From contig OZ076409.1 of assembly GCA_964187785.1 (NCBI GenBank), positions 77,254,001 through 77,318,000 on the forward strand: a DNA stretch of 64,000 bases. The letters are read 5' to 3'. Every line of letters begins with the position of its first letter. Positions within the stretch are counted from its first letter, which is position 1. The translations under genes and the position numbers were made by a program. Positions 6,304-54,109 of the stretch are shown piece after piece. The notes under the pieces were generated by a model, which made no database searches, was not told the origin of the DNA, and was given only the letters and a program-made list of their open reading frames with translations. This DNA comes from Amphiscolops sp. MND2022. Taxonomy: Eukaryota.

Positions 6304-6498
6304 TGTGGCATAGCTGAATAAGCTAGAGGACAAACTTTATACTTTAGACACTATTATTCTTATTGTTATTTAATTAGTCTGAAGTACCTGCCTATACTGT
6401 ATCATCTTTATCATACTAAAGTTCGTTTAGTAACAATAGCTACGAGATAAAATACAGTCTTGAAAGAAAGTAAATTCTAATATCATAAAGTTACAACA
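6304..6498 (+). repeat. 3' LTR of the Mag-like Gypsy
   Basis: Direct repeat of 419-613, preceded by PPT AAAGAGGGGGGAA. Confidence 0.97.
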
Positions 6499-14600: not shown

Positions 14601-16084
14601 TGTTAAAAATGGGTTCAACAATGCGAAATTTGTATAAAAGACAGAAGAATTCCAAACTCATCCATCACACCTGAATTGCTCAATCTGCTCGAATGGGACT
14701 TAGGTCCAGAAGACGCAATGCAAATCGATTTTTTACCAAACCTACCCCCCAGCGGAGGATACGAAAACATCATTACTGCAATAGACGTGTTTTCGCATTA
14801 TCTTTTTGCTTACCCAGTTACAGACGCTTCAGCCACGAACACGGCTAATGTCATTTTTGACATAATTACGAAACAGACCTACTTGCCTGCCACCTTGATC
14901 ACTAACAAAGGAACGGCCTTTACGTCCAAACTGGTGGCCGAAATTGCTCAAATTTCGGGAATTCAAGTGAATGGCGCAACTACAAAACACCCACAAATTA
15001 TTGGTAAACTCGAACGCACACACGCTAGCCTGAAAACGAACCTAAAAAGGGCCTCAGGGGACTACCGGCGACAATGGTTTATATATTTGCCTTTAGCCGT
15101 ATTAAACTATAATACGACCTACCACGCCACCTACCACGCTGTGAACCATCCAGAATCTTTCATGGACGAATCCCATATAATATATTAGATCACAAATTGG
15201 GCCTTAATCCAAACTCGAAGGTCTTTCCAACCACAGACTTTGCTGAGGAATTTCAATGACGCACGCAAGTACTACTCGATTCCACAAAGAAAAACATCAT
15301 GCAACCCTACTTGAAATACAAGGAGTATTACGACCGAAAGGCCAAAGCAGCCCTTTTGAGACAAAACGACTATTGTTTCATATTACAACCTATCGCTGGC
15401 CACCAAGGATCAAAAATCCCGTTTTGAGAATACAGATGGACAGGACCCTATATTGTAGAAAATGTCCTACCAAACGAAAATTATATAGTCAGAAAACTGA
15501 ATTCCAACAAAACGCAAATTCTACATCGTATTATATTGCGTAAATATGAGCCGAACACCGTCCTACAAGTCATCAGACCGGAAGACATTTTGCAACCGGA
15601 TGATGAAATTATTATTCCGCAAGACAACCTCTATGTTATCACTTGGGAAACCAATTTTGGAGAATTCCCCAATTCCACTGAAAATAACACAATTCCTACG
15701 AATCGAGATGCTCAAGACACTTCTAATGATTACGTCAATGATGACAGAGCGCCAAACGAAATTTTGGCCGACGTGGACTTTAGGTCCACTGGGCCTCACG
15801 AAAATGACGCCAGAGCGCCAGTCGAGTGTTTTACCGATGTGGACCTTACGTCCACCGGGCCTCACGAAAATGATGATTTTGATTCGCTTAAAGAAACCCG
15901 CTCAGAACGTACAGACCACAGGTTTGACGATCGACAATCGTCAGGAGGGAGAGATACTATCGTGCCCGAAGTATTAGATGATCAAAATGATGATGTGATG
16001 GTAGAAAATGATAGCTCTAGGGGAGGAAAATATAATCTTCGTCCTAGACCCACCCCCAACTTTACTGACGAATACAAATACTAG
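11640..16084 (+). pseudogene. pol (PR-RT-RH-IN), decayed, with two internal deletions
   Basis: LDGLVDTGA; LDCSQAYH, LAQGL, QFVDD; MTDAS, SIYAKEFL, TDNK; WVQQCEIC, QIDF..IDVFS, GKLERTH; ends KYNLRPRPTPNFTDEYKY*. Sequence is missing after ~13932 (RT thumb/connection) and ~14527 (before integrase). Confidence 0.95.
15767..15876 (+). repeat. Two 66-bp tandem units in the integrase tail
   Basis: ADVDFRSTGPHEND / TDVDLTSTGPHEND. Confidence 0.85.
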
Positions 16085-16254
16085 TCAAATCTTTAAATTA
16101 CTGTCCTGTTCTTGAGCAATAAAAATATCTTTTAGGGACCTGACTGACTTCTAAACGGAAAACTACGATAGACTTCAGACAACAAATGGAAAAAGATGAA
16201 TAAAAAACTGAATAAATAAAGGCTGTTTATCATGTGCAAGTATGTATTAGACAA

Positions 16255-19200: not shown

Positions 19201-20571
19201 GAAGCTTTCGGCGGAGCAATTATCTCATCAGTTTCTGGCCTTTCGTAAGAGTAACCAATACTGGAGAACTCATCATCGCTCTGGAGGGCTCCGCTTGTGT
19301 CACTCAGTTGACCCAGTGTCGTGCTTCTAGACCTTTGACTCTGGCCGACTTATAAAGTCGCTGGGGTAGTCATGGTGCTAGCAGAGGCTTCTAAGGTGAG
19401 TCTCGTCGTTTTTTGGATAATGCCTTCTAACATGTCTTGGGAGGCCCTCACAGTCTCGTCAGCAACAATCTTAAGAAGGCTGCTCAATTGATCCTCAGTA
19501 AACGCAATAACTGGGTGTCCTTGGGGGAAATTGAAGGGTTCATTAGTCTGGAAGTGTTCTTTGATGAGCGCCCTGCTAGTAGGAAGTAAGACTTTGACCT
19601 CTAGGAACCCCAGGAAGGCCAACAGTGGTAAACGCACTTTCAGCGTCACTAGACTCAATGTTAAGCTGTCGGGACTTCAAGTCTAAAGCCTGAGCAATCG
19701 TAGAGCCAGCTGGGTTGAAAGAAGACTCGGCATCAGTTTCAACTACAGGTTCACTACTGCTAATAGTGACAGCCCGAACGTCTTTGTGACCTGTTTCGGC
19801 ATTTGAGTCCGTGTCAGCCTCTTCATCACTCATGGTACGAAATGGAGTAGGAGCTCTTTGTTTGGCTGGAGGATGACTCCATGAAAGGATGTACTCCCTT
19901 TTCTTGGTTGTTTGTTTGTACCCTGAGTACGTTTTGTTTCCGCTTGAGAGCTGGCGCCAAGCACTGGCCCAAGAAATGAGACTTTAGGTCCAGAGGGACC
20001 TTGTTCAGTCGGGCTCAATTGGAAGCTTGTGGAGGGAATCATCACGATAGGTTCACTCTCAATCGCTTTTACAGTGTTGTTTGCCCCCACTAAAGCCTCT
20101 TGTTTCGGTAAATCTTTTTCAACGCTCTCAGTTTTGCGGGTCGAATATGCCTGGACGCTTTCTCCTGAACTACTATTTCCAGACGCAAACGGATTGACTA
20201 GGGATGGAGTGTAATCCGGAGACGGTGGTCGAGGGGTTGGTTGACAAACTGTAGGAGTAGAAGAATCGACATTTTTTTGTAGAGGAATCTTGTTCAGATG
20301 AAGCCTGTAATCCACTTCCCTCAAGGATTTCTATGGCAGTGAGTAAAACACTAGGAGAAGTAGGAGGTGAAATTGTCTGTTTGGAGGAAGAAGCTGCTTC
20401 TCCCACGGTTGTGGGACTGCTGGTCTCCACAGCCTCATCAGGGCGTTGGGTCAAACTGTTATCTCTGATGCTTTCATTGTTCATAGACGCCTGGGTCGGT
20501 TGGCCGTTTGATTCAGTTCCTAAATGGAAAGGAATAATTTCGCGCGGTTCACTTCCTGCAAATGAATCCAT
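16255..20571 (-). pseudogene. Antisense intron-containing gene inside the Gypsy element: S/T/P-rich N-terminus, C2H2-type zinc finger, hAT-transposase-like body
   Basis: Minus-strand exons 20571-18447, 18347-17862, 17751-17463, 17397-16255. GT-AG introns 18446-18348, 17861-17752, 17462-17398 have matching phases (0, 0, 1). FYCQICNANISLYGEGARKLLRHHSSEKH at ~18913-18827. Several stops and frameshifts. Confidence 0.8.
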
Positions 20572-21725
20572 CTCGCCGCTTTTTAAAATCTTCCGGAAGT
20601 AGAGTTCAACTCATTCAATTTAGTTTGAAACATTTCACGACGGAGGAAGTACAATTAGTCGAACCTAAACCCTGATCAAGTTTAGTTAGACAAAATGAAA
20701 GAACCAACCTGATGTTATTTCCATGACGGAAAACATAATTGTTGTCCCGAACGTCGTTTGAAAATGTTGGGCTGAAGAATGTGCTCAAGGGGTTGACTCT
20801 GTCCTTTTGAAGGCTCGTGATAATCTGTGACTGATCAGTGTGTCTGCTCAGCTGTGTGGTTCTCAGAAATAAAAATCCCTTGATGGGTAGAATTACAAGT
20901 TGAGGTGACAATCAACTCGAGTGTAGAGAATGAAAAGGGGCGGAAGAATACTGGATCACAGACACAGAACATACATTATAATATAATAACATTACTTACA
21001 CTTCCTGACCTCACTAGACTTAGAGACAATGTACACGAAGTACAAAACGCAAGACGGTTAATTACTTACCTGGCGAATGAACGTCGTGGCCTATTAAGTA
21101 GTTCTTTTATCTACAATTATGTACAACTTATCACATGTACCCTTAGTGTTATTATTTAATCAAGATCTGTTTCATCATGGATTGAAACTGCCAGTGAAAT
21201 TCATGTCTTTATTTCATCTTAGGGATTAGTTCATTTCGTAAATTAGTGTTAGTTTAACTGAAATAGCCATTCTCTTGGCTTTCGTCAATTTTTTTTGTTC
21301 TTTTCTCTGCGACACCTCATTGGTTACTTCAGTTGATGTAGCCGTGCGGACTGAAGGTCTTTGATGGTGAATTTATTTACCGGCAGTTAACTTGAGTTAA
21401 CACTTATTACACCTATTCACTGCCATCAAGTAGTTATTTAAACAGCTAGAAAGTCCTTCAAGAACCTTTTAACATCAAGTTTACCTTAGTTATCATTCCG
21501 GGAAATTGGGTAAATTCTACATTTAAGGAATGTTTGGTAAAGATTTAGGAAAGATCAGAAACTGTTTCCCCGCTGGGGAACTCCCGCGAAAACGGGAAGA
21601 CTGGCAGCCCAAGTATCTCGAGGAGAAATCATTCATCACAGTTTGAAAAGTGTAAAACAGTCGAGTAAAGAAACCTCAAAATTGCGAAGAAAGTCTTTCT
21701 TAGGAGATTTCAAAACAAAATGTAA

Positions 21726-22536
21726 ATGAATCTACCGTTCTATCTAGACGATCTCTCAGCGCTTCCAGTCAGTCCTAGTCACTACTCTTCTGATGAAGAA
21801 ATGGATGTGGACACCCAGTTAGTCACTGCTACCAAAGACGACTCCGAAGATAGCGATATAGGAATGATCGCGTGTTACCGGCAAGACCAATTCAGCCAGA
21901 TGGACTAGTCGCAGGACGCAAAATGACTGTGGAGATACCAAAAAGTGCTGGGGGAAACTTACCCCGATTGTCCCTAGGAGAATTTTGGTAGCATGATGCA
22001 ATTGGTGGACAGCCAGGCTGATCCGCTGGATATGGGAGCGGGGCCAAGTACAACTACCCAAAGCAGTAGTCCGCCCATAAGGTATTGTGGTAAACTAACG
22101 CCATTAGTTGACACGCCCCTATCTCCTCCACCACACGAGCGTGGTCCAAGTCACAGCAATTGTGACTACACAACGACAATGCAGACTCGGATGCCGCTCC
22201 GACCGAATTCTCATATACAAGCACTGAGTGTCCGCAAAGCGTCACAATGTGGACAGCCAAATCAAGCTCAATATGGTGACTGCATAGTTTGCGGAAGGAG
22301 TTATGAACAAATAAAGGAAACTGCTGCTTGGATACTTAGAATCTTCTACTTATCGTGGAGAAGGTTACAACGATCAACAAAGAAGACGTAATGCTTATTT
22401 AGCTGGAATGGACCAAGGGACAGTACTCTTTATCCCTAGGGGAGTGTCGCACGCTGCCGCCTGTGACTGTAACCTCTACCAAATCACATTGGAAGGAGAC
22501 AACTCTAACCCACCCCCAGGAGTGCTCCCCATTTAA
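21726..22536 (+). pseudogene. Sense accessory ORF of unknown function running across the PPT into the 3' LTR
   Basis: Pieces 21726-21908 and 21993-22391, then a shifted frame GYLESSTYRGEGYNDQQRRRNAYLAGMDQGTVLFIPRGVSHAAACDCNLYQITLEGDNSNPPPGVLPI* ending at 22536. Includes CIVCGRSY. Confidence 0.7.
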
Positions 22537-25500
22537 AGACTGACAAGGACAAAAAGTAATGTAAACTACATGTATTTTGTTGTTATTTTTATTACTTTGA
22601 ATTTCACCATAAAAGACCCATGGTCCATACGGCCTCAGTGCAATAAATAATTTTAGTTTACAAGGCTGTATTTAATCGTTTAGTAAATCGTCCTGTGCCT
22701 GTTTTATTGTTGAAATGTTAATGCAATTTGGCAATTAGTATGTAAAATCAATGAATTAATACAATGCAATTGTATGCGGAAGAGGAAACGCGTTCAAATG
22801 AACGTTTCTTCTAGCTTATTGTATTCGCTGTACAAGTAATAAAGTCCAATCAGAATGTAGTACATTAGTGTAGTTCCGTGGAGAGAATGTCTGCCACGGT
22901 GGAACTAGCGTGCGAGTGCCGCTAGTGCTGTAATTGAGTGTGGCTACGCGAACTTAAAATCCGCTACAGTGAAGTATTATGTTAACATGAAATTACATAT
23001 TCTGGACGCATGTAGTATTGTAGATTAGTATTGAAAGTACATACAGGGCACTGTAAACGTTTTCCTACTTTGTCGGCCTAACCGCCAAAGCCCCCATCCT
23101 TCTCTTTGATGCAATGACGTCATAGTGACGTACCCTAACATGATGCTTTTTTTAGTTTACCATTTCTATATTTAGTAACATGACCCGCAATTTTTGTGTT
23201 GTCACCTCCTGCCAACTATAAATAGGGAGGGCGCAGCACCAAAGGGACAATCTTTTAGAAACACGAATTGCAAACAAGTTGCTAAATCTGACCAGTTGAA
23301 TCTGATATTGTGCTTGTCTTACCCAGTTCTTTCATTTGTACTACTCGTTCTCCAATTCAATATTGCTTATAGTGGTATTTCTTCAATGCCTTCTACAAGA
23401 AAGCAAAAAGCTAAGGAAAGACGCTCTAGACAGTTAGACATTATGTCTGATGGAGAAAATGTTGATGTAAGGTTAGGAAATTACTCAAGGAATGATGAGA
23501 AAAACGACCATAGTGAAAATGAAATAAATTTGGACTCAGAGTCAAGTAGACCACAACGAACCTCTAATGTAACTGGCGAAGACTTTAGGTCACTACTCAC
23601 GAACAGTAGAGAAAACAGTGAGATTACTATTGGTACTACTAGAATGATAAACGAAGAAATTTCCAACCAAATGTCTAGGAGACTCAATGAGATGAAAACC
23701 AGCTTAAAATCTCAGATACAAAATGCAATCACTGTTGCAATAGCTGACACTGTGCTTCCTTCTATACAGAATGCATTAGAGATGCAGGGGAGATCAAATT
23801 TAACCGTAGTGGACCGAGCGTCCAACGGGCTACATCCTGGCCCAAGGACAGCAATTGTCACTGTCATGGACATTTTGGTTAGGAAAATCACTGTTTAGAT
23901 GGTCCTCATTCTGTCCATTTCTCTGGTTGCCTTTTGCGTTCATGTTTCGCTGAACTTCGAAAATTGGTTCCGGTCTCTCAGACGGAACGTCACATCCCTT
24001 TCTGGTCCAGTGTCTTGATCCGGCCATAATGACATTTTGAATCTGTGGAAGTACTTGAGTACTTATTGCATCACTTATGGCTTTTTGTATTTGGACACTC
24101 ACAGAGTTCATCATCTCGTCCATCTCTCGTGAAATACGAGAATTTAATTCACTCGACAGTCTATAAATCTCAGCACTAGAGTTAGCCGTAGCTGAATTGC
24201 GGTCAAACTCGGCATTAATACCGGCGTTGGTAGTTCTCTGCTTTCTACCCACATTCTCATCTCCATTTTCGGGTTCATTACTAGCGAAACTTCTGGATCT
24301 CCTAGGCAAATTGCTATTTAAACTGCCTTCCCTCTCTCTCGTGTCAAAGTGGTTCTCACCTAACATGATATCTAAGTTCTCGATATCAGACAACATTTCG
24401 AGTCCTCTCGACTTTCTAGCTTTCTTTTGCTTTCTAGTGGTAGGCATTGAAACGAACCTGGTCAAATATTAAATTATTTAACACCAGGAAACAGTCTTTT
24501 GTAGAAAGTTTGTAAGAGAAGGCTATTTTTACAAACTGAGCTTGAGGAGCAAAACAAAGATTGTGTCTGCTCAAGGAAGTAGCTCCTATATATACTTCCT
24601 TGGGCGGGATATTTAGGATACAAATACTCAGAAAATGTGACAATAACATTCCGAAAGCGCCTGATATACATATTTGTGTGGACATCTAAGTGCCGCCGAA
24701 ATGTGGTTGGAAAGGTCACGCGACCGTTCAAATTCTTTCACTCACAACACAAGCAAACATTTGAAAGGTGCGAGACACATCAAACAGGGTATCAAGCCAC
24801 AAGCATCTGAGGAATGTCAACAATTCCGTGTCGGCACGTGCCTACACAAGTGGACTGTTCTGGTAAATAACTAATACAACTGCATATTACTGCACATGTC
24901 TATTATACCTAATACTGCCACAACTCATACAAATCAACTGGACAAATCAGCTAAATCAGTCTATAAGACTGTCATCTAAAACTACAACATGAATCGTTCT
25001 TAATCGCGTCGAATAATTTAGAGAGGCAGATATTAGTTTCTGGCATGAACACAGCAGCACATGACATTAAAAGCATAAGGGTACATACATCACTCTAATT
25101 CGACACTCGAATAGCCGGCTTCAAAAGTAGCCGAAACCGGCCACTATCCATCTGGTCTTACTAACAGAAAATAATAATCCGGCAAATGGCCTTATTCGAC
25201 CAATTATTAAAATAAAGTGTGAAACTGCAAAAATGGGTATTTAATCAACATGAAAGGCACAATTACCTAATTATCAATCAAGTACATGAATGTTAGGCAA
25301 TTTATAACTCGCAAGCGCAAGACGCTCGGAACCGGCCATTTGACCAAAGTACTAGACGATAAAAGCAGAATTACGTCACGTGGCCTAAACCGTCCAATTG
25401 GTGAATACAATAATAGCACCGCCACATGAGCAAACATGATTGGTCAGCATAACGAGCTCAAGTGACGTTTCCGAAATTGGAGTTACGTTCACTTGAACTC

Positions 25501-25989
25501 CTCTCCTTTACGCTGCATAGCTGTTTCAATTGCTTCAATTGTTTACATTGTTATACTGCATTTTCAAATTTGATAATCACAAGCATCTCATCTTAATTTC
25601 TCAATTGTTGGCCTTAACAGACTAATACTAATACAAATATGTACAAAACGAAAAAATGAATAACTTCAATGAATGCAACACATAAAATGATGAAACGTAA
25701 AAGTTTAGGGTTTTTGATTACTTTCCTCTAGTAGATGGGTAAGGTGCCGACAGCTGTCTCTTGTCCCTCCGCCGTTGTCGTGATTTTTGTACCGTCACAG
25801 GCGGCAGCCTGCGACATTCACCGTGGAGGACCAAAGGTTTCATTGGGCGACAACGAAACTCCGAAGCAGCAGAAAATGCCCAGAAAACGTGGGAAAATCG
25901 TCCTAAAAGGTGTTTTACACAGGAAAATAGTAGACAAATGTCTAGAGAGGGTTCAGCCGACTCTTATAATGGCGAACAAAATCGCGACA
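22445..25989 (+). repeat. 3' LTR (about 1585 bp), interrupted by a sister-family solo LTR
   Basis: Matches the 5' LTR and contains the gag N-terminal ORF from ATG 23386. It resumes at ~25817 and ends CGCGACA at 25989, followed by the TSD. Confidence 0.93.
23862..25816 (-). mobile_element. Solo LTR (1955 bp) of a related Gypsy family
   Basis: On the minus strand it starts TGTCGCAGGCTGCCGCCTGTGACGG and ends CCATGACA. TSD GTCAC/TTCAC, TATA near 24590. ORF MPTTRKQKKARKSR (ATG 24447) is homologous to MPSTRKQKAKERRSR and open to the LTR end. Confidence 0.9.
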
Positions 25990-28900: not shown

Positions 28901-29691
28901 GCTCAAATTTTTTGAACATTTGCAAAAACGCTCATGGTAATTAGGGTTAAATAAATTAGCGTGGCGAATATGTTGCATAATTTATTCCTTTTACAAACTT
29001 TATGTGAATTGTTTATTCAAATTTTGGTACTTAAGAGTACGGAAATGTCTTTTCCAAGGAGTTCACATAATTAGGAAAATTACCAAGGTGCGATAGTTTC
29101 GAAGGAGCGATAGGTTCTTCTTTTAGATGTGACCTTCAATTTTCATAGTTGTTTTTTTTTCAAATCGTTTTACTATTTTGCCTGGCAATGGTTGCAATTG
29201 GGCTTCAAAGTGCTGCGATTCTTCACCAGCATGAATTTCGGATAATATATAGGAAGTCTTACGATATCATATCAATCGTAGCACGATGCGTGGCACGATC
29301 ATTGCTAAGATCAGGCTACGACATGCACCGATGGCAAGCTCGGGCACAATAACACAACTGGGAAAAATATAACTATATGTATGGAAATTGTTATATTTAA
29401 TAATTCAACTTTCAATATCATGTGTTTGATTTTTTCCGTCTCATATGTAGGTACTAAGATGCATTTCAAAACGCATCAAAAAGTTTGATGAAAACTTGCA
29501 TCTCAAAACAATCTCAAGTTTTGAATGGAAATACTGAAAGTTGATTTAAATCGTTTTCATTTACTCTTCTCCATCTCAAATTGGTTGTTTTGTCCTTTTA
29601 TCAAAATTGACTCAATTGTCCTATTCTGAAATAGTCTTGTCTTATTCTGGAAATCGGCCGTTCTGTCCCACATGCAAGTGATGGCACTGCG

Positions 29692-30042
29692 TTTTTAGTC
29701 GGCGCTTCATGAAGGGAAACGCGACTATGATACTGACTCTTTTTTATTCAATCCAAACGACCTGACCAAACAAGTTCTACAAAAGTTCTACAAAACGTTA
29801 AGGTGTCAAATTCGACCATCTGGCTTAGCGAACTGAACCGAAAAGGTTTTCCTTTTTGTTCCGCGTAACATACAGTACCGGGCTAGACTAAAGGGTTTCT
29901 TTCAGTTTTTCGGCACTGAGACTTTTTTCAAAAATTTGTTTCCTCAAAGGGCCCCCTTCAATTATTTTGATGTTTGGCGACAGAATGGATGTTGAAAAAT
30001 TCCACAGGGTCCCCCTTTTAGTTATTTTCGGCATTGTGAGAC
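29692..30042 (+). mobile_element. Helentron/DINE-1-like element, 5' part (continues at ~37591-37775)
   Basis: TTTTTAGTCGGCGC...CGCGACT head hairpin and AAAGGG-CCCC/CGGCATTGTGAGAC internal units. Similar to the copy at 58190-58610. Confidence 0.7.
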
Positions 30043-30966
30043 TGTTGCAGCCTCAAACCATGTCAAAAAAATTGAAGGAAAAATAGGTCGAGTTAGCTAT
30101 TTTCAAAATGCTGTAAGAAAGTGTGGAATTGGATTTGAGGGCTGGTATTCCTTCCTCCGTCAAATTTTGACCCAAATGAGAAATCTAGACCATAAAACGA
30201 AAATCAGAGCTGAAAAAATTTTTAAATCTTGTATTCTGGGTAATTTTTGATCGTTTTTTCATAGTCAGTGAATATTTGGACCTAATTCTTTGTTTATTGT
30301 ACTTAAATGGTTATGAACGCCATATTTGGGCTACGTGGGTGTTCCTAGGACCCACGAGGACTGCTTGAGAACTTCGCTAATCATTTAATAGCAATAAAAA
30401 AATGCAAATCTATGCCTTAATCTTGCTGAATTGTATGCTTTTCATATATACCTTTATATATTTTGGTGCCTATTTACAACTCAGATAAGTAATTTGTATC
30501 AACCTGCTCTACATGTCAAGGCGCTTTTACGGTCAAAGTAAATTTAACTAGAAACATCTATTATGGAGTGTTTCCTGTATGCTAAAGTAACAACCAGAGT
30601 TAACTTCTACAAAAAACGCACAACCAAATAGAGATTCAAACAGGTCGACTTTGACGACAATGAAAGCTTGGAAGTTTCTCGTGCACTTAATTCTGTTAAC
30701 TCTGGTTATTGAAGAGCTTTATCAGAGTTGAGCAAGTGATATTATATTGTTTCGAAAATCCAACGTCAATTTACTTATATTGCATATGATTGCGATGTTT
30801 TCGCTTGAGGAAGTTATCGTAGACGCAAGGATTTGGACTTATTGTTTGGTCTAGCAGATCAATAACGCTGCCCATCATCGCGACATCTGAGTTGATTCCT
30901 ATAGTCACAGTTTAGAATTTGAAACTTACTTCATGTTTGTGAAACAGAATAAGTACAAAATCAAAG

Positions 30967-31560
30967 ATGCAGCAATTGCTTGACCGACTTCGGAAACCTA
31001 TTCAAAGTAACTCTAGCCGAAATTTGATTGAAGATAGATGCGATATCATCTATTCAAAATTTCAAAAAGCTAGAAACCTAATAATTTCGGATAGCCTAGG
31101 AATAGGGCTCGATATTGCCAAGTTTAACGTTTTAATCACTGCCCGGAGCTAAAAGAGAACACGTTTACTAATTTATACCCAAAAGAGATCTTTATTATAT
31201 CATCGTCCTATTTATAGGCGGTAACAATCTTATTTCTACCACGTCAGAAACCTTACTTCGATAGATATCCGATCTTGCAACTCGTTTATTAGCCAAAGCC
31301 AAAAACGTTTTCGTGCTTGGTATACCTCTACGCCGGTTTCAACGTTATCAAGCAAAAGAAGTTAATTCTTTAATAGCTTCTTGTCAAGAAGTCTCGAAAT
31401 TCAGAGGAACATCTAGGCAAGTGTTTAGCATTAAGCACTTGAACAAGGATAAAGTTCATTTGAACTCCTCCGCATTCAGTAAAATCAGCTATACTCTGAA
31501 AAGCAAGACACTTTACCAGAGATATTGTTCAGCAGTTGAAAAGGAAGGACATCTCCTAGT
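30967..31560 (+). pseudogene. SGNH/GDSL esterase-like ORF upstream of the BEL PBS
   Basis: Blocks in canonical order: LIISDSL, SLPGA, IVLFIGGNNL, VFVLGIP, DKVHLN. One frameshift (~31135) and two stops. The end coordinate is approximate. Confidence 0.78.
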
Positions 31561-31779
31561 TATTGGGTGTACCGGATTTTGCAAGTACCTTTCCTGGACA
31601 AATCAGTTTTGGTATTGTCCGCAAATTCTCAACCAAGCCATCGTGAAGCTTGGTAAGTGTTTTGGTCAGCTTGCTTTGCAGACGTAAAATTTCGGTGCCG
31701 CGACCCGGGAAAGCACTCTGTATATTTAGCCTAACTATTGTGACTTTCACTTATCTGACTGTTGCAGTAAGGCGACAAA

Positions 31780-34700
31780 ATGGCTGAAGGTGGGCTTTAG
31801 GAGCCTCATTATATGATCGTGTGAATGAAAAATGGAACAGAAAAAAGTCCCATTTTCGACCTCGCTGAAAAACTCATCCACGTTGAAAGACTGGATTGAT
31901 CATGAAAAACGAGTTTTTGAAATTGTTACGGCCATTAGAATTATTGAAAATGATTTTCAAAATTCGAAGTCTAAGAATCCAGTCCCTTGGACCGATGTGA
32001 TCAAGTTTCGTTTTAAATGTTGGGCGTCTTAGGATGAATTAAAGAAAAAATTCGAACTCTATCTCCTGATGTTGAAAAAAAACAACAACGCAAACGTGAA
32101 GAAGCTCTTACGAAATTCATTTTAGAATTCAGGGGGCGATTCAGAAAATGGGTTGGAAACCACAACAATCTTGGTTATATTGCCACGCTTTCGTAGAGGT
32201 TAAAAGATGAGAGAGACTTACTCAAGTTTTGTAAGTTCATAGACAAGTCCGCTAAATTGAAACGGAATTTGTCTCGTGAAACAGATACTATTAACAACTT
32301 GATGCAACAAGACGAAATGTCAAGGTAAATGAAATCATCCTTTCAAAAACTCCAAGAAACGAAAGCGAATCTGAAGCTGGATAGAGCTTACGAAAATGCT
32401 TGTGGTCCGCTGAAAGATGGGTTGGAGGGAATTTTCTCTCAGTAAGACATTCCAGTGACATCACACGATCATGAAGACAGTCAGACACGAATTTTCCGCA
32501 CTAGTGCAGACGATACGCTGGAAAAGAGTCTGAAACTGCTGAGAGATGTTAACCAATCCACCGTGTTGGACAAAATTGTGAATCTTACGGAAGTTGCTCC
32601 TCGAAAGCAACTTTGAGTACATTGAAGAAACGTTCACTAGTGGACCTCTCTTACGGAAGTTGCTCCTCGAAAGCAACTTTGAGTACATTGAAGAAACGTT
32701 CACTAGTGGACCTCTCACATTCAAGAACTTTGTCAAAAGATGATGTCTACAAACCTCGGGGCTCACAAATGGATTTCAATTTGTCAAGGGTAAATGAACG
32801 ACGACGCTTGGAGTTGCATGCTAAGTTTTTAGAGCAAAAGTGTCAAGTAGAGTATGAGAAAAAGCACCGATACCTAAAGTTGGAAAAAATAGAGAAAATG
32901 AAGTGCAGACGAACCAAATTGTCTTAGATTTACAAGTGGAAGCAGGTATGGAAAGCAGAAAAGCGCTTTAGCAGCAAGGAATGCGACTGCGTATAGAAAA
33001 GGCTGATGGGTCATTCCATGCTTCATCAATTTGTCCCAGTTTAATGACTTTTGCATTTGAAGAAGACAAAAACAGATATTAAAAATTGGTTGGAACAAAC
33101 TGATGAGAATTTTGCAAAGGGCTTCTTCCGACCGAAGGAGTCTAGTAGAGAATGGAAAACAAAGAGTGGTCAAGTAGACTGCCTCAGAGATTTCAAATAT
33201 ATTCTCATTTGAAAAGTCAACCCTGCCATCGCATTCTCAAAGCCGAGGTACGAGTAAATCACCTCAGAGAAAAATCACTGGAAATATTTTTCTAAAAACA
33301 AAACCTTCACTCCAGTAGGGCAATGACGAATCGAAGCCTTGACAGGGAAAATTGTCGTCCTTCTTTTTCCCCAGCAGTACCTGTACAGCAGCCTGTACAT
33401 TTTGTTCAAACAAGTTTACCTAAGGTAAAATGATCTGAATTTCATGGAAATTCATTGCAATGGACAGAATGTTCCAGTTTGTTCACAGCTGCCATCCATA
33501 ATGCGACATTTAATGCCAATGCAAAATGAGTCATTTTAAAACACTCTTTAAAGATAAAACCAAGGCAGCTATTGCTTGGCTTGGATACTCAGGAATGACG
33601 TTGAGTGTTTTGGTTACAAATTTCGGACGTCCACAACAAATTTTTAATGCGCAGATGAAGCATACCCTTTTGAGTCCGTTCATCATGTCGCAAGACGCAG
33701 CGGCTGTTAAAAAGTATTTTCAGTTGTTTGGAAACAATTTGGTGTCACTGGAGATCTGTATTCAGAATCAGTTACCTCCTGAGCTGAAACAGAATGGTGC
33801 AGATGTTTTCAAGTTTAGTGAGTGGCATAATGAAGTTGCCTATGTGCAGGATGAAATGATGGCGCAATCAAAACACAATTTGACGAAAGAACGTCTGGAT
33901 TGACAGAAAAGGTAAAGATTTCAACATTCGCTGCTAAGCACCTAGGTACACCAACATCACCTTCCACTAAACAATGTCCATTGAAAGATGGCGAACATAA
34001 AATTTGGATGCGCAACAAGCCGCCAACGTTGAAGAAACTGGAACAGTGCTTCTGTTGCCTTAATACCCAGCTTATTAAAGACTGCAAATCAGAACGTGTT
34101 TGTGAGGTGAATGGTTGCACTAAGAAACACAACAGCCTTCTACACTATGATGCTCAGAAAATTGATAAGGACACCAAGGACAAGAAAACAGAAAACCCAG
34201 CGTCTCAATCAGGGCCGGCAGCTCTTCTTTGATGTCTACAGGAAACAACGAGTTCTTACAGTTGATTCATATTTCGATACTTTAAAACTCAAATCGTAAC
34301 AGTCAAAGTTGGTTCAAGCGATGCAGAAACTCCTTGCGAGAATGTAACGTTGTTTTGTCACCCTAACTCAAATGTTGGTGGAAGGACCATGACAAAAACT
34401 AAAACAAGATTGCAAATATTTATCTGATTTGTCTAACATTAGTGTCTCTTTGACTGACGTTAAAGTCATTCTCGGTCAGGATGCCTATGATTTGATCAGG
34501 CCGCTGGAATACAAGTCTAGCGTTCGAAGTCAACCATGGGCAGTTAAAACAGCACTGGGTTGGACCATTAGCGAAGCTGTCAAAAAACGAAACCAGTATC
34601 GGTTTCTGGCAACTCTTCGGTTGCAACTGACCCATTGGCGAATCAGATGAAAAAATGGTGGGACATGGAGACAAATGAGTCCGTGTGTACATCCGCAGAA

Positions 34701-37590
34701 GCCAGGCAGTCAGAAGGGTTTGCAACGCAGCCTCAAAGTTCAAGGGAATTTCATTGAATGATGAACTGTTTTTTGGATCTGACTTATTGCGGAATTTAGT
34801 TGGAATTTTTTTAGTATCAGAGAACATCAGATAGCAATCACTGCCGATATAGAGTCTATCTATGTTTTACAAGTAGCAGTTCGAAAGGAAGAATGTAGAG
34901 TTTTACGTTTCTCTGGCGTGACAAGCCAGATGATAGCATTGGAAAATTTGAGTACAATAGGCAGTTGTTTGGAGCAAAGAGTTTTTCAACGTCTGCCAAT
35001 TATGGTTTCCAACAAAAGGGCGGAAATAACATAATGGCGTTTCTTGTGGCAGCCGCTACACTAGACAGAAACTTCTAAATGGACGACCTTGTCAAGAGTG
35101 TTGATACGCCACACCTTAGAATGTTATCAGCAATTGGTGGAAACACTAAAACTCAGTGGTTTCACATCGAAGCAGTGGGCGAGCAATTGCCCTGAAGTGC
35201 TTGAAATTTTTCCTTCAGACGATCAGTTGGATCCTAATGATTTTACATTGAGTGCTAAATCATCACCCATCCTAGGTCTGGAATGCCTCGAAAATGCAGA
35301 TACTTTTCAAGTCTGTCGAGGACCAAGCAAAGAATGTCCACAAGAAGTAACGCAACGAGTGATGTTAACGTTTGTTTTGTCGGTAATTGATTCCATAGGA
35401 TTCTGTACACTGTTTAGCATGCGAAAACGTTACGGTCAGTGAAGAATCTGACTGTCATTGAAGATGAGCAAACTTCTCCGAGTTGCTAAAAGAATTGAAG
35501 ACAATTAGGCAGACTTCTTTTCCTCGGAAGTATTTTTCCAATATCCCCAAGAACGTGCAGTTACAAATTTTTGGTGATGCCCAAATGGAAGCAATATGCA
35601 TTGTTGCATGTTTTTGAGCAGAAACAAAAGATGGCATCGAAGTGTCCTTTGTATTAGGTATATGAAGAATAGCTCCTATCACACAGGTGTCTATTCCACT
35701 TTTTGGGCTACTTTTTGAGCTACTCTTTTGGTATTCCGTGAGTTTGAGAAAATTGAATGATCGAGACTACGATTTACCAATCAAAAGTGTTACTCATTGG
35801 ACAGATTCCGTTTTTGTTTTGCAATGGTTAAACTCAGCGGACGAAAAGCAGTATGTCTTTGTTGCCAACAGAGCAGCTGAAATTCTGAAAAGTCCACAAT
35901 TGACGAATGAAAATTTATCCGAGTTTAGTTGAATCCATCTGATATTGGAACTCGTGGATAACCATAGAGAAGTTATCCGAAAGTGATTGGTTAACCGGAC
36001 CTTTTTGGTTGAATGACCATCCCGATGACTGGCGTTTACCTTTGCAGCCCTTCAATGTGGGTTCTCATTATCGTGCGAAGTTGCAGTAACTGTGAACACA
36101 AGTATGACTCAGGAGCCACCAATTTATTGGAATAAACTCCGTAGTGTCTCAGTATGGGTCCGTGTTATCGCGTTTTGTTCGCGCCTGAAGTATAGAATTC
36201 AATCTGAAGACTCACTTGTTGAAGAACTGAACCGAGCAGAAGAATGAGTTTTCAAAATGATTCAGCGAGCATCTTTCGCGGAACTTTTCAGTGAAAAGGA
36301 AAAATTCGGTAAAACTAAAAAGGAGAGAGTCTATCAAAATTTGCACCCTTCTTCGATAAAAAAGTAGTTATCAGAATTAGCGGTCGCATCAATCAAGCTA
36401 ATTTAAGCTTTGAACAACGTCACCCTGTATTTTTCCTACGAAACGAAACACGACCTGGTCATAACCATGTTTCGAGATCCACACTTGGAATACAATCATG
36501 AAAGTGTAGAGTATGTGAGAGGGGTTATTCAGCGGAAGTTTTGGATAATAGAGTTACGAAACGTTTTGAGGAGTATCAAAACTAGTTGTGTCTTTTGTCG
36601 CAAATTTCGTGCACAAAATAAAACTCCACTCAAGGTCAATTTACCCCAGAGAGATTTGATTATCAGTCATACCCGTTTACCAACGTTCGGGTGATTTATT
36701 TCAGTCTAATTGAAGTTAAAGTGTCACAAAGATCTATGATACGTTGGTGCTGTTTATTTACATGTTTAACTAACAGAGCATTACACATCGAAGTGGTCCG
36801 AAGCCTCGACAAAGACTCTCGCTTGCTAGCAGTCAACAGATTAATTGCTAGACGTGACAAGCCAACGACTATCCTTAGCGATAACGGTACTAACTTCGTT
36901 GGATCTGCGAGAGAAATGAATGAGTACTTTAACTCGTGGAATCATGACCAAATTACGTCAGAGTTGGCTCAAAAGCACGTTGTATGGAAATTTAACTCTA
37001 CTGAGGCGCCACAGTTTGATTGAGTAAGGGAGAGATTGGTTAAAAGCTGCAAAGAAGGAATGGTGGCTATATTGAGTATTCGATCTCTCATTGAAAAAGT
37101 TTTGTTAACAACTATGTGCTTAGTGGAACAAACATTGAATGCGCGTCCTACTACTTCAGCAAGCGATGATCCCGAAGCATTTGAAGCACTTACATCGAAC
37201 CATTTCATTCTGGGTCTTGCAAATGTTTGTGTTCCAGTTGTTCCGAACGCAGAGGTTTTTGGTAATCATAGAAGGATGTTTATGCCGAGCCACGTTTATG
37301 CTGACATGATTTGGAAGCTATGGGTTAAAGAATACCTTCCTCAGAACAATGTGAGAGCTCAATCGAGCATATCAGAACCAAATCTATAATTTGGAGATCT
37401 TGTTTGGTTGATAGAAGACAATGTAAAACGGTCACACTACAAGATGGCTCGCGTCTTGGAAGTATACCCTGGAAATGATCGTATTGTGATGTCAGCATTG
37501 ATCAAAACTGTCGATGGAACCGTGAAACGACCTGTGGGTAAACTGGCTCCAGTTTTTGAAAAACATTTCCAAGCTGAAAACAGTCCCCGT
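31780..37590 (+). pseudogene. BEL/Pao gag-pol remnant
   Basis: Fragmented ORFs 31832-37743 carrying the BEL motifs listed above, with deletions in the protease and RT regions. Confidence 0.85.
32583..32716 (+). repeat. 66-bp perfect tandem duplication in BEL gag
   Basis: TCTTACGGAAGTTGCTCCTCG...GTGGACCTC occurs twice. Confidence 0.95.
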
Positions 37591-38398
37591 AGACCATTTT
37601 TTTTGAAAAACATGGTTTTCGCCAGAGGGTCCCCCTTCAGTTTTCTGGTGTTTTGCAACAATGGATGTTTGAAAATCCGAAAGGTCCCCTGGCGCGCCAC
37701 TTTGCTCCAACTTTTGCGTTTTTCAGGCACTATAAAAGAATAATTGACACTTTGAAGTGCTTTTGCTAATTTTCGGCTTTTGGTAAGAACTGGTAATTTG
37801 AATTCTTCTGACGTCTCTCGCATTACACAGGAATGAACACCTATCGGAGCATTTGGACTTCCTCATCGGAAATTGTGTCTTTAAAATCAGAGTCACCGAG
37901 AATCGGCAAACAATTCTGTTATCATTTGATTTTTTCTATTGTTATTTTTGGTATTCCTGTGCGGTATTCCTGGTAGATGACGACGTTCTGCTTGCAAGAT
38001 ATGGTATAAGAAGTTCGAAAGGAAAACAAATTTAGTGTGAACATCGTTTGAATATCGTTTCAAAGTGATATATTTGAATCCCATAAGAATTCAAATGACA
38101 ATAGGTTTGATGAAGGCATAGTTGACTATGATTATAGCGAAACGGTTAGGACTTTTGAGGCATTTTGCAAGGCAGGGGTTATACAAAATTGATTTTTATA
38201 CAAAAAGCCTTCTACGAATCATTTTTGATCACTAAAACAATAAGCTTTGTGAACAATAACGTTTGTGACATAAGCGTTCCAGTCATAAACGTCTCAGGAA
38301 TTGAGGTGAAAAGTCAGAACCAAACAGTCAAAACGCGAATGTCGATAGCACATTCAAAAAGGACAAGTGAGAGCTTTCAGTTCGTTTTTCATAGCAGT

Positions 38399-40551
38399 TG
38401 TCGGAGTACTCGTTACTCGGTCCGGGAACATCAATATGTTCCGGGATCGAAACATCTTGCAAATTTCCGTCTCTAGAGCTAAGATAGTTAGGCTCTAGTG
38501 GTGACGAATTAGACAAACTATCTACTTTCGCCAATAAGTTCTCTATCAATTTAAGGATTTCCCTCTGACAGTGTTCAGTGTCTCTTAAACGCTTAGACAC
38601 TTTGTTCTCAACTTTACTGGATATATCTTCGAAATCTTGCTCTGAGATACAATTGTTTTCGTCAGTCTGTCGACTAGACTCTTCAGCTAACTCATGACCT
38701 TCAGGCGGATCTCTCCTCAATTTTTTTCTGAGATCTTTCTGGCATATTGATGGAAACTTTTAGGCTATCAAGATTTAAATTAATCAATAAGTTCTAACAA
38801 GTCGAGAAATTCTGACGACCTTTTAGCAATTATTTCAGAATAGACAAGTTCGCTCAATCAGGATGAACAACAAAATGTAAACAATTCGAAGTTAATGAAA
38901 TAACAAACAAGGTTGGGACAAGTTTCAAAAGGTGATCACTAATGATTTCAAAGATGCGGTTATTTCAAAAATAAAACTGCTTCAAGTGAGTCTCATCAAA
39001 ACAAAATTCAACAACTAACAATCTTAACCAGCGTCAGGTATATGTATACTTTCCGCTAGGCACGCGGGATAAATCCCGAGCGTGAACTCACACCTCGTTC
39101 AACTCGGCTTCCTTCCAAAGCGATAAAAATCCGAATTAGGAAAGCTTCCTCAGGGTTCGGCATTCGGCTTCGTGTCACTTTAAGAAAAGTGGGAATTCAT
39201 TTCCTGCCGAATTCCTGATTTCGCATTCCTTCTCCTTCATCTTCCGCGAATTTGTGACGCCGAGTTCAAAGTTGGCAATGAAAGTTCATAGACCTAGCAA
39301 CTGACGCGTGAAAAGTAACAATTTTACAACGAAACAAAATGGGAATCAATCACAAATATCACAAAATATGAAATAAGTTCTTTTTCCAAGTTAAATATTA
39401 ATTGAATACTGCTCAGAATCAACATTTTCACACTGATTAATTATCTTGGTCGCACTTCTGATAAATCGTTCTAGTTTAAGTCGACCGAACGGTTGACGAG
39501 AGTGTTGACTCAAAAGTGTTTGAACAAATTTCACTATTAGAAGAACGTTTAACAAAACAGTATATTAGAATTGTTAAAGCGTGACAAGGGAATGGTAATA
39601 CCGCATTGATTAGTGTAAATAGCGTACATCTTCAACTCAAACGGTTCCATCATTTCTGTGGAAGGGTAAACTCTAAATTATCGGGGAGGTGACTGGGGTA
39701 TCGTTCTGGATTCAAACAAATGTATTTCACACTTGCTATTTCATAAATAGTATTACGACACATTTCATCACATTTCATCGTTTTAACTTCTTACGAAGTC
39801 AGTTAGATCCGTATAATTATTGTTCATTGAACATTGATCGTAATGAATCTTTATGACAGCAATATAAGCAACCGCGAATTAATTTCGAAATTGTTCGGTT
39901 GGACGGTTGCCTGGGTGGTCGACTTCAAATTAGTGTTATTAAGTCTGTTCATAGCATCAATTTCACATCATTATGTAATTATTCCATCGTTTACATGCAT
40001 ATTCTATCGTATTTCAGCTTCTTTTAAGTTGGGATTGTATTACAGTTAGCACAGAATGTTGATCATCTAAATCATTTTATTAATTATTCAGTCGAGCGAC
40101 TGGGCGGTAGTCCCAGTTTTTGGTCGACTGCAGAGTTGACTAAGATGACTACACAGCTAACGCTGTTTATTTGCGCTAATCGCTGATTGGTTGATTTATG
40201 AGAGAATGAAAATCGTTTCGTTTAGCTCCGCTGTTTTTGGGACAGTAAGCTAGTCGGTGTGCTGGTTGGATTAATTTCACTCATCGCACCGGTCATTTTA
40301 CTGTAAACAAATTGTCTATATAGCACTTAATATTATTTAAGTATTTACATATTGATGTATTTTAGGTACTGCACTGGGATCAATTTTTTAATATTATTTA
40401 AAAAACTATTTAGTTGTTCTCTATGTTAGTGGTTGTTTGTTGGTTTAGTTCTTTCGGGTTCTCATGCTGATGTTCCGGTCATCTTCTCCACTTTCTTCCT
40501 CAGGCGTTCTCAACTGATCTATTTCCTCACAGTACCGCTGGGGCTGTGACA
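38399..40551 (-). mobile_element. Solo LTR (2153 bp) of a third long-LTR family
   Basis: Minus strand TGTCACAG...CTCCGACA with perfect TSD GCAGT (38394-38398, 40552-40556). A coiled-coil-like ORF from ATG 38745 (MPERSQKK, frameshift in an A-run, then RRDPPEG...NEYSD) is open to the LTR end. Confidence 0.88.
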
Positions 40552-42584: not shown

Positions 42585-44637
42585 TGGATTTCCCAACATG
42601 ATTCATCCATTATTCATCCATGACTCATGGGTTCACCAAGCCGAGAATCATTCCATGATTCATGGATGATCATGGATGATCATTGATGATTAGCCATGAT
42701 TGAATGTAATACAAAAATCGCCATGAATGATTAGCCATGATTCGAATGAAATGATCTTGGATTGTCCTACAAAATCCTGCTACCTCTTGAATTTCTTGAT
42801 AAGATCTTCTAAAGTCTTGCTTCTTCCAAAAAATCTTGATTTTTTTGACAAGAATCTTGCCAAAGTTCTTATCAACAAATCCAGGAGGTGAAAATTTTGA
42901 ATATTTCAATATTCAGTGCAATTTCACAAATTGTTGAGCTAGGCCTGTTTACAGTAATTTGGGCCATGTTATGGAAAAATTTGTAAAATTTACCGTTTTC
43001 TCAGCAAATTTACGGCCAATTTCAGAGACCATTAGTCTGCAATTACCAATTCTGCAAATTTTCAATATTATTATATGATCAATTTTGGGTCTGGAACATG
43101 TAATTATTAGATCCCAAATCCATACTAATTGGAACATATTTTCAATCCTTTTAGATCCTTTTGCTCATTTTAGATCTGAATTGGCAATTGTTAGAGCAGA
43201 TTTCATTGCTTTTCCAACCTCATATGTATCTTTTGGATCTTTCATGATCAGTTTTGAGCCTGAAACTTGTAGTTTTTAAATCGTTATTCTGTAACAAGCC
43301 GGGAACGGCCCAAGTCGACGTCATATCTAGGGCTCAAAAATAGCAAAAGGTCTTCAATGTGTCAAGTATTCTCTTGTACCCAAAAAACCTAAAAGTTGGA
43401 CCAAATTGGCGCGCTAAAAGGGGAACATTTTACAAGGGTAAAGATAAAAATTTACCGAAAAAAAAGTCTCACAATGCCGAATAAAACTGAAAGGGGGCCT
43501 CTTTGGGATTTTACAATATCCATTTTGTCGCAATATATCAAAAAATTGAGGGGAATACCCTTTGGAGAGAAAAACATGTTTTTCGAAAACAAAGTCTCAC
43601 GATGCCGACAAAACTAAAATAGAGGACCCTTTAGTCTCGCCTGGTATTGTATGTTATATGCGAACTTTGAAAACGTTATATCTGAACTTTGAAAACGTTA
43701 TATCCGAACTTTAAAAACGTTATCTTCGGAAAAAAGTTGCATAGTGCCGAAAAAAACCAACTTTTGGAAGCATAATAAAAAGTTTGTGGTTTAGTGCGAG
43801 ACTCGAACCCACGCTCTCTTGCCTCTCAAACCCCAAAAATCCGGGTAAACCTCTCAGTTAAGAAGTTGAACAAATGAAAAAAAAGTGGACCGATCGCGTT
43901 GAACTGACGAAAAAAAACTAGCCACTGTAAGAGTCGGGATTTTCTTCGAAAACGCCGACTAAAAATTGGATCTGTTTTTCGATCCTTCCAGATCATAACT
44001 TTGCTTACTCAAATCTGAATTGGCAATTGTTAGAGCAGAATCCAATGATTTTCCAACTTCAGCTGCATTTTTAGATCCTTCATGATAAATTTTGGGTCTG
44101 AAACATGTATTTTTTAGAACCTCGATACATACCAATCTTGTTTGCAATCCTTTTGGATCATGATTTTGCTTAATTCAGATCTGAATTTGCAATTATGAGA
44201 GCCAAATTCAATGATTTTCCAACTTCAGCTGCATTTTTCGATCTTTCGTGATCAGATTTGGGTCTGAACTTTATTTTTAGATCGTAATTCCATAATGCTG
44301 GATATTTTTGGATAATTTTTTACTCATTTGCCGAGATTTCTGAAGGTTCTATGATGACTGAGGTTCTAAACGGGAATCTTGAATCCTCTTGCACTTTCTT
44401 GCCTATTCTTGATTTCTCTTGAAACTCATGATAAGAATCTTGGAATTTCTTGAATTTCTTGGTACGATCTTGCAAGATCTAGCGAATACTTGGATTTCTT
44501 GGTAAGAGTCCTGGCAAGATTCTTACCAAGAGATCCAAGAGTATCCAAGATTCTTGTCAAGAGTTCCAAGAAGTTTTACACTGGGATGCCATGAAAAAGC
44601 CATGATCATGGATGAAAGGTGGGTTGTCCACCTGGGT
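42585..44637. repeat. Nested short-unit repeat elements (CCATGA-rich outside, TCTTG/CAAGA-rich inside, degenerate longer units in the centre)
   Basis: CATG-rich blocks at 42585-42745 and 44587-44615; TCTTG-rich blocks at 42755-42880 and 44375-44575 (also 55195-55400); repeated AGATCTGAATTGGCAATTGTTAGAGCAGA units at ~43170, ~44010, ~44175. Confidence 0.55.
43293..43965 (-). mobile_element. Helentron/DINE-1-like non-autonomous element
   Basis: Reverse copy with head AGTCGGCG..CCCGACT and tail ..CGACTTGGGCCGTTCCCGGCTTGTT. Contains a 23-bp unit x3 at ~43662-43725. Confidence 0.75.
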
Positions 44638-53847: not shown

Positions 53848-54109
53848 ATTATCAGAAACTTGTTTGTCAAATAACCAAACTAGATTGTTTGTAGTTAACG
53901 TATTCGATTGGAGTTTGCAATTTTAATTGTTATACTCAATTGATTAATTACGGTTTCTCAATCGATAGGCTTTAACCGGTAGAGCAAAAACCGCAGAGAG
54001 AAATTTACAGTAATTTCAACCGACGTGGGTCATCCTCCACAACAACTTTCATCTTGTTAAGTTTCCAATTGGAAGCAAAACTCTCCCCGAACCCCCAAAA
54101 TTGGGTTTT

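What the first reader, a model, noticed from the sequence alone, without database searches (positions are those of the whole stretch)
30967..31560. SGNH esterase-like gene inside the presumed LTR of a BEL/Pao element
Seen: SDS, PGA, GGNN and DKVH blocks in order, lying between the element start (30043) and the PBS (31693). Established: SGNH esterase domains occur in ORF1 of CR1/L2/RTEX non-LTR elements, where membrane or lipid binding has been proposed; they are not a standard BEL component. Inference: a second, unrelated LTR superfamily in this genome also keeps a cargo gene in a ~1.6-kb LTR.
Basis: partly seen in the sequence, partly recalled or inferred. Interest (0 to 1): 0.7.

Follow-up and report, generated by a model that had tools for sequence, protein, structure and literature searches.

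The report
Esterase gene inside a retrotransposon LTR
This is a broken copy of a small fat-ester-splitting (SGNH) enzyme gene that a family of BEL/Pao jumping genes appears to carry inside its long terminal repeat, an unusual place for a whole enzyme gene, and a relative of the same gene rides at the front of an unrelated LINE-type jumping gene.

Summary
The four SGNH motifs are real, but in the window they are not one open frame: the gene (31038-~31609) has two frame changes and two stops. Intact relatives (188-207 aa, stand-alone, many copies) keep the Ser/Gly/Asn/Asp/His active site, fold as SGNH hydrolases (pLDDT 94.8; Z 17) and differ from the window copy mostly at silent sites (dN/dS about 0.13). 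The window element has no 3' LTR, so it cannot show LTR status itself. A related contig (L001) does: pol end, purine tract, TGTTG start (13/15 match to window 30043), intact esterase gene, then the same PBS. A read-through protein leaving homology exactly at the LTR end, and near-identical gene pairs on same-length contigs, agree. No whole two-LTR element was seen. A separately inserted LINE fragment is unlikely, but a 38%-identical relative is a free-standing first ORF of a PHD-ORF1 LINE (L002). Esterase cargo is known from LINE ORF1 and rotifer LTR-element ORF3; a whole esterase inside a BEL/Pao LTR was not met in eight paper searches. The neighbouring Gypsy LTR ORF is the front of gag, not cargo. 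Function is inferred, untested.

The parts
29693..30042 (+). Left half of a dispersed repeat into which the BEL element inserted
   Evidence: 29936-30046 aligns to 57747-57854; the right flank 37591-37773 continues the same repeat at 57847-58036
30038..30042 (+). Possible 5-bp target-site duplication (GAGAC; TAGAC at 37590-37594), uncertain
   Evidence: Junction sequences; one mismatch and no 3' LTR, so it may be chance
30043..31689 (+). 5' LTR of the BEL/Pao element, about 1.65 kb; the only LTR in this copy
   Evidence: First 15 nt match 13/15 the start of the L001 LTR, the only match that good on either strand of 64 kb; 3' end from identity with L001 up to the PBS and from P0292, which leaves homology there
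31038..31609 (+). SGNH esterase pseudogene: frame changes near 31066 and 31135, stops at 31169 and 31262
   Evidence: tblastn with P0006, P0009, P0010, P0020; 66.6% DNA identity to L001 862-1565
31093..31095 (+). Codon of the catalytic Ser (block I)
   Evidence: Ser in 40 of 42 aligned rows that cover the column
31145..31147 (+). Codon of the oxyanion-hole Gly (block II)
   Evidence: Gly in 42 of 48 rows
31223..31225 (+). Codon of the oxyanion-hole Asn (block III)
   Evidence: Asn in 44 of 49 rows
31448..31459 (+). D-x-x-H (block V, catalytic Asp and His)
   Evidence: Asp 45 of 50, His 43 of 50 rows
31652..31681 (+). Conserved LTR tail: GGTAAG (splice-donor-like) and TTGCAG (acceptor-like) about 30 nt apart
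   Evidence: Present in window and L001; function not tested
31693..31710 (+). Primer-binding site; resembles the 3' end of tRNA-His (recalled, not tested)
   Evidence: Same 17-mer follows the LTR in L001 at 1541
31780..37578 (+). Decayed BEL/Pao gag-pol, many stops and frameshifts; zinc-knuckle-like Cys/His runs near 33980-34170
   Evidence: Peptidase_A17 36.9 bits, cut-off 22.3, at about 35474-35809; Integrase_H2C2 and rve below cut-off, DUF5641 38.4 bits, cut-off 23.1
37579..37773 (+). Break at the polypurine tract, about 12 nt before the 3' LTR would start; the dispersed repeat resumes at ~37591; 3' LTR missing
   Evidence: Homology with L001 ends at 37581; no LTR remnant elsewhere in the window

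Best explanation
The stretch is a dead copy of an accessory gene that belongs to a BEL/Pao family and lies wholly inside its long (1.4-1.65 kb) LTR, so a complete element would carry it twice and solo LTRs would scatter it. SHOWN: SGNH fold and active site in intact relatives; purifying selection; position between the post-pol TG start and the PBS in a related element. INFERRED: active copies make a ~190-aa soluble, basic esterase (pI 8.6-9.8, no signal peptide or membrane helix). It most likely sits in the transcribed R/U5 part and is read as the first ORF of the element's RNA (about 60:40 over U3), because neither LTR has a polyadenylation hexamer after the gene and the LINE relative is also a first ORF. 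My preferred function (about 45%) is that of the LINE ORF1 esterase: binding acidic phospholipids and hydrolysing acyl esters so as to bring the element's particle to membranes for assembly or transport. The gene family is a portable cassette that this host's retroelements share across classes; the direction of transfer is not known.
For: L001: DUF5641 end (34.1 bits), purine tract, TGTTG at 171, intact 198-aa ORF 865-1461, PBS at 1541, no internal repeat. LTR start 13/15 to window 30043, exactly where the flanking repeat is interrupted. P0292 follows the LTR tail and turns to unrelated sequence just where L001 enters the PBS, as a 3' or solo LTR would. Closest relative on a contig of the same length for 6 of 64 proteins, 1.0 expected, permutation p 0.0018; P0287/P0290 likewise, 98% against 95.5% for the next; 0 shared lengths among the 15 listed LINE-type copies. 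dN 0.27, dS 2.11 over 182 codons, while the LTR upstream of the gene barely aligns. All five active-site residues in 28 of 41 rows; all four motifs in 68 of 88 full-length proteins. Model pLDDT 94.8; Z 17.0, rmsd 2.1, 157 aligned to an SGNH esterase. ZfL2-1 esterase is basic, active and binds liposomes (PMC3905857).
Against: No element with two LTRs was seen; the case rests on one 1.7-kb contig, which may be a collapsed assembly, circle or tandem junction, plus indirect protein evidence. The LTR appears to end in AA, not the canonical CA (window, L001, P0292). The family lacks the His and Ser that mark LINE ORF1 esterases and has no coiled coil to tie it to a particle. No expression, start-site or activity data. 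Genomic context is known for only two subfamilies of a family with 421 representatives.
Confidence: 0.6

Rival explanations
1. Same position in the LTR, but the enzyme acts on a small acyl or acetyl ester (a host signalling lipid, acetylated glycan or defence metabolite) and serves counter-defence or host-cell conditioning rather than membrane targeting.
For: Closest solved folds are small-acyl esterases: sialate O-acetylesterase and PAF acetylhydrolase. The protein is free-standing, lacks the LINE-esterase marker residues and is shared by unrelated element classes, as a general helper would be.
Against: Fold neighbours are only 10-23% identical and differ little in Z, so they do not name a substrate; the high pI fits acidic membranes.
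Confidence: 0.2
2. The gene is a passenger: kept by selection on a host benefit or a few source loci and merely carried by the elements.
For: 13 of 41 rows have lost an active-site residue; in rotifers the ORF3 esterases showed no clear departure from neutrality within the genome (PMC5408684); Helitron-captured texim genes are a precedent (PMC4021074, abstract).
Against: Two BEL lineages with saturated silent sites keep the gene at the same place with dN/dS about 0.13, and dN equals that of the pol end (0.27 against 0.24); it is the best-kept part of the LTR.
Confidence: 0.1
3. The gene is an internal ORF3 between pol and a very short LTR, as in rotifer Vesta, and the window copy is a circularly permuted unit.
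For: The window holds exactly one unit, from TGTTG to the pol end, with no second LTR; the known LTR-element esterases are ORF3s.
Against: The LTR would be at most ~80 nt, against 0.2-1.2 kb reported for BEL/Pao (PMC3118150); the unit starts at TG right after a purine tract, and pol reading into the LTR start is usual in BEL (recalled); paired near-identical genes on same-length contigs need two copies per element.
Confidence: 0.06
4. 30500-31650 is a LINE fragment separately inserted in this copy.
For: A relative of the gene is part of a LINE (L002, L003).
Against: The window gene groups with the L001 BEL gene (12-row clade, 99/94) and not with the LINE gene; no DNA similarity to L002; same position and LTR tail in a BEL lineage with saturated silent sites; other copies of the window's own subfamily share its upstream and downstream LTR sequence (P0092, P0082, P0100).
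Confidence: 0.04

Closest known systems
GDSL esterase ORF3 of Vesta LTR retrotransposons and Athena elements in bdelloid rotifers (Rodriguez, Kenefick, Arkhipova 2017, PMC5408684; passages read)
   Same: Separate esterase ORF with intact S, G, N, H in an LTR retrotransposon; no coiled coil or membrane helix; same ORF type shared by unrelated retroelement classes in one host.
   Different: There it is an ORF3 beside gag and pol in rotifer-specific lineages; here the carrier is BEL/Pao and the gene lies within the LTR. Sequence kinship to the rotifer proteins was not tested.
Esterase of LINE ORF1p, ZfL2-1 and CR1/L2/RTEX (Schneider et al. 2013, PMC3905857; abstract and first part of Results read)
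   Same: SGNH fold, Ser-His-Asp triad, Gly/Asn oxyanion hole, basic pI, carried by a retroelement.
   Different: There it is a domain of ORF1p behind a coiled coil and has the marker residues H191 and S228; here it is free-standing, has Phe (43 of 50) and Leu/Ile (42 of 50) at those places, and ends in a Cys motif. In L002 it sits ahead of a separate PHD-type ORF1.
BEL/Pao LTR retrotransposons (de la Chaux and Wagner 2011, PMC3118150; passages read)
   Same: Pao peptidase A17, integrase, DUF5641 end, TG start, PBS.
   Different: LTR 1.37-1.65 kb against 0.2-1.2 kb reported; the only extra gene mentioned in the passages seen is env; 'esterase' does not occur in the main text; the LTR seems to end in AA.
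Genes in retroviral LTRs: MMTV sag, HIV nef (recalled; only a search listing seen)
   Same: A whole or nearly whole accessory ORF inside the LTR, duplicated at both ends.
   Different: Those lie in U3 of vertebrate retroviruses and are not enzymes of this kind; the part of the LTR is unknown here.
texim SGNH genes mobilised by Helitrons in fish (PMC4021074; abstract read)
   Same: Stand-alone SGNH gene spread by a transposon.
   Different: DNA transposon and captured host gene; no LTR.

Membership tests
SGNH/GDSL hydrolases | Blocks I, II, III, V with Ser, Gly, Asn, Asp-x-x-His | tested here: met
   S 40/42, G 42/48, N 44/49, D 45/50, H 43/50 in A4; all codons present in the window
SGNH/GDSL hydrolases | Flavodoxin-like SGNH fold | tested here: met
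   Model of relative P0009, pLDDT 94.8; Foldseek E 1.4e-6 to PAF-AH; Z 17.0, rmsd 2.1, 157 aligned to 7pzg
SGNH/GDSL hydrolases | Pfam Lipase_GDSL_2 at its curated cut-off | tested here: inconclusive
   Window piece: no hit. Relatives: 14 of 19 hit at E<=0.1, none at cut-off; 11 of 13 hit, one (P0085, 35.8 bits) above cut-off
SGNH/GDSL hydrolases | Ester hydrolysis | not testable with these tools
   Needs an assay
Functional gene at this locus | Uninterrupted reading frame | tested here: not met
   Two frame changes and two stops
BEL/Pao retrotransposons | Pao-type pol domains (Peptidase_A17, DUF5641, integrase last) | tested here: met
   L001 DUF5641
BEL/Pao retrotransposons | Two LTRs with TG...CA ends and a 5-bp target duplication | tested here: inconclusive
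   Only one LTR in the window; TG start met; 3' end reads AA; duplication has one mismatch
LTR-resident gene | ORF lies between the post-PPT TG and the PBS | tested here: met
   L001
LTR-resident gene | ORF seen in both LTRs of one element | tested here: inconclusive
   No two-LTR locus fetched; indirect support from same-length contig pairs and P0292
LINE ORF1p esterases (ZfL2-1 type) | Marker residues H191 and S228 | tested here: not met
   F in 43 of 50 and no H at N-4; L/I in 42 of 50 and S in 1 before G-x-P (positions mapped by motif)
LINE ORF1p esterases (ZfL2-1 type) | Fused behind a coiled coil in ORF1p | tested here: not met
   Stand-alone ORFs in L001 and L002; best 150 profile hits all <=320 aa; none among 7999 longer candidates, weak evidence
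Rotifer Vesta/Athena GDSL ORF3 | Common ancestry with those proteins | not tested
   Their sequences were not fetched

The most novel reading that the evidence does not exclude
An active BEL/Pao lineage encodes a complete, catalytically intact enzyme inside its LTR, read as the first ORF of its RNA, and the same free-standing esterase cassette has been exchanged with a LINE lineage of the same host, where it precedes a normal PHD-type ORF1. LTRs would then be vehicles for a cross-class lipid-acting accessory gene, with every solo LTR a self-contained promoter-plus-enzyme unit.
Probability: 0.45. Interest if true: 0.75.

Novelty: new variant of a known kind. Interest (0 to 1): 0.58.

Why it matters
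Why retroelements of several classes keep an SGNH esterase is an open question, addressed biochemically only for the fused ZfL2-1 domain. Here the enzyme is small, free-standing, confidently modelled and present in many intact natural copies in both an LTR and a non-LTR carrier, so its substrate and lipid binding can be tested directly. A whole enzyme gene within an LTR also matters for annotation and genome evolution: LTRs are treated as non-coding, and solo LTRs would spread the gene with its own promoter.

Tried and rejected
No whole genome is held for this window, so sister elements could not be read. No sequencing run was listed for 29500-38500, so no reads were laid; that says nothing about expression. 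Scans of viral and prokaryotic contigs found no relative of the protein (75 and 108 pattern matches, 0 confirmed) and no match to the LTR-end/PBS pattern. Sequence searches of solved structures gave no hit at E<=0.001. A first model from 14 sequences was poor (pLDDT 58.9) and its fold search had no E<=0.001 match; it was replaced. The ZfL2-1 esterase is not among the rows shown, which is inconclusive. No Pfam family in six frames of 30043-31040 and no shared ORF with the matching part of L001: no second LTR gene found. The Gypsy LTR ORF was rejected as cargo. No source named the host. Earlier scan notes held nothing for this sequence or genome.

Full report
OBSERVATION. The four motifs are in the sequence in SGNH order, but six-frame translation puts the Ser block in one frame and the other three in another. 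Intact relatives align to three pieces: 31038-31070, 31057-31134 and 31136-31609, with stops at 31169 and 31262. So the locus is a pseudogene starting at 31038, not an ORF at 30967-31560. Pfam finds no SGNH family in the broken piece.

THE PROTEIN FAMILY. The piece finds 19 proteins among 25 candidates, 37-79% identical, many of them complete 188-196-aa ORFs in clusters of up to 20 members. A profile finds 421 representatives at 50% identity; the best 150 are all 320 aa or shorter, and a search of longer proteins found none among 7999 candidates, which is weak evidence. Lipase_GDSL_2 hits 14 of 19 relatives below its cut-off and 11 of 13 further ones, one above it. The Atlas's nearest clusters carry Lipase_GDSL_2 on 46% and 33% of members. 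With 50 sequences the model of P0009 reaches pLDDT 94.8 and matches PAF acetylhydrolase (E 1.4e-6) and a sialate esterase (Z 17.0, rmsd 2.1, 157 aligned). Ser, Gly, Asn, Asp and His are all kept in 28 of 41 rows covering the five columns; 68 of 88 full-length proteins pass all four motif patterns. Seven members tested have pI 8.6-9.8; none of the 88 has a hydrophobic N-terminus.

THE ELEMENT. Downstream lie a PBS and a decayed gag-pol with Peptidase_A17 and DUF5641 above cut-off: BEL/Pao. The window has no 3' LTR. The element interrupts a dispersed repeat whose halves end at 30042 and resume at ~37591.

IS THE GENE IN THE LTR? One metagenome scan gave 4 confirmed loci from 94 pattern matches. 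L001 reads: pol end matching window 37423-37581, purine tract, TGTTG at 171, an intact 198-aa gene at 865-1461, the same LTR tail and PBS, then gag-like sequence. A non-repetitive 1.37-kb stretch between purine tract and PBS is one LTR, whether the contig is a collapsed repeat, a circle or a tandem junction. Its first 15 nt match window 30043 at 13/15, the only such match in 64 kb. P0292, a frameshifted member of the 40-member L001 cluster, reads through the tail and leaves homology exactly before the PBS, as a 3' or solo LTR would. Of 72 proteins I kept 64, dropping 8 on several or very short contigs; 22 share a contig length with another, and for 6 the closest relative is that mate (1.0 expected within subfamilies, p 0.0018); 16 of the 22 do not show this. 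P0287 and P0290 are another such pair. No two-LTR element was seen directly.

SELECTION. Window pieces against L001: 182 codons, differences 43/45/94 by codon position, dN 0.27, dS 2.11; the pol end gives dN 0.24, dS 1.05 on 52 codons. The LTR upstream of the gene barely aligns (best local score 36, shuffles up to 31). The gene is the conserved part of the LTR.

LINK TO LINES. L002 is a LINE with endonuclease-RT ORF2 and a PHD-like ORF1 (PHD on under half of the members of those clusters), preceded by a free-standing, 38%-identical SGNH ORF; L003 and P0134 show the same setting. In a 43-row tree the window gene, L001 and ten others form a clade (99/94) that excludes the LINE gene; the deeper branching is unresolved, so no direction of transfer is claimed. 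The family lacks the His and Ser that PMC3905857 gives as markers of ORF1 esterases.

THE GYPSY PARALLEL. The other element's LTRs are ~1.6 kb, but their ORF runs to the LTR end, and the frame 10383-11435 crosses the PBS at 10522 into gag with a zinc knuckle. It is the front of gag, not cargo.

MECHANISM. Shown: fold, active site, selection, position in L001. Inferred: expression and role. Neither LTR has AATAAA or ATTAAA after the gene; the AATAAA words lie upstream (30393; L001 298), which weakly favours R/U5 and first-ORF reading. A donor-like GGTAAG after the stop is conserved. By analogy with ZfL2-1 I favour lipid binding and acyl hydrolysis that help particle assembly or transport; small-ester hydrolysis for counter-defence is the main rival.

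LITERATURE. Eight searches ran. Seen: PMC5408684 passages (GDSL ORF3 in Vesta, shared with Athena); PMC3905857 abstract and first part of Results; PMC6431247 passages; PMC4021074 abstract; PMC3118150 passages, 'esterase' 0 times; PMC13524379 term search, 0 hits. None of these showed an esterase in BEL/Pao or inside an LTR. No supplements were read, subscription papers and Repbase were not searchable, so an unpublished Repbase entry may exist. sag and nef as LTR genes, the tRNA-His likeness and the BEL habit of pol reading into the LTR start are recalled. An earlier unchecked note (e1-7695285) reports internal SGNH cargo in a giant copia element; it was a lead only.

VERDICT. A real but dead copy of a selected, probably active accessory esterase that lies inside the LTR of a BEL/Pao family (about 85-90% for the position) and has a LINE-borne relative. 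New variant of a known kind; interest 0.58.

Noticed in passing
L002 240-5090; L003 1-1493: A complete-looking LINE (PHD-like ORF1 1174-2111, endonuclease-RT ORF2 2112-5018, (ACT)n tail) has a free-standing SGNH ORF at 240-863 ahead of ORF1; its 90% cluster has 32 members. L003 is a 98% copy with 442-933 deleted. PMC3905857 found esterases only as ORF1 domains.
   Followed up: partly
window 31686-31692; L001 1534-1540; P0292: The LTR seems to end in ...GTAAAA rather than CA in three copies; unexplained.
   Followed up: partly
window 37579-37596: The element stops at the polypurine tract and the interrupted host repeat resumes: exactly one LTR-plus-internal unit. Deletion of the 3' LTR, aberrant integration or an assembly effect.
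   Followed up: partly
window 8250-25989: Gypsy element with ~1.6-kb LTRs whose gag frame starts inside the LTR. The 5' LTR (8250-10521) has a 680-bp tandem duplication; the 3' LTR (22445-25989) is split by an inverted related LTR (23865-25816).
   Followed up: partly
window 16255-22391: About 6 kb between that Gypsy's integrase and its 3' LTR holds several long ORFs, mostly on the minus strand (16255-17154, 298 aa, no Pfam hit; 17811-20610): possible antisense cargo.
   Followed up: no
SGNH family termini: Conserved N-terminal His (32 of 39 rows) and C-terminal C-x(2-9)-C-x-C (53 of 60 full-length proteins); a possible zinc site closing the two ends, not tested.
   Followed up: partly
window 418-6499: A second Gypsy element with 197-bp LTRs 99% alike; close relatives are abundant in the same ENA contig set.
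   Followed up: no
window 32583-32716: Perfect 66-bp tandem duplication inside the BEL gag region.
   Followed up: no
L004 651-993: Decayed member of another subfamily in a context that matches neither the BEL LTR nor the LINE; its upstream sequence recurs in P0218.
   Followed up: no
window 43290-43820 and 53290-58600: Many direct and inverted copies of the dispersed repeat that hosts the BEL insertion, some with tRNA-like box-B-type words; type not determined.
   Followed up: no
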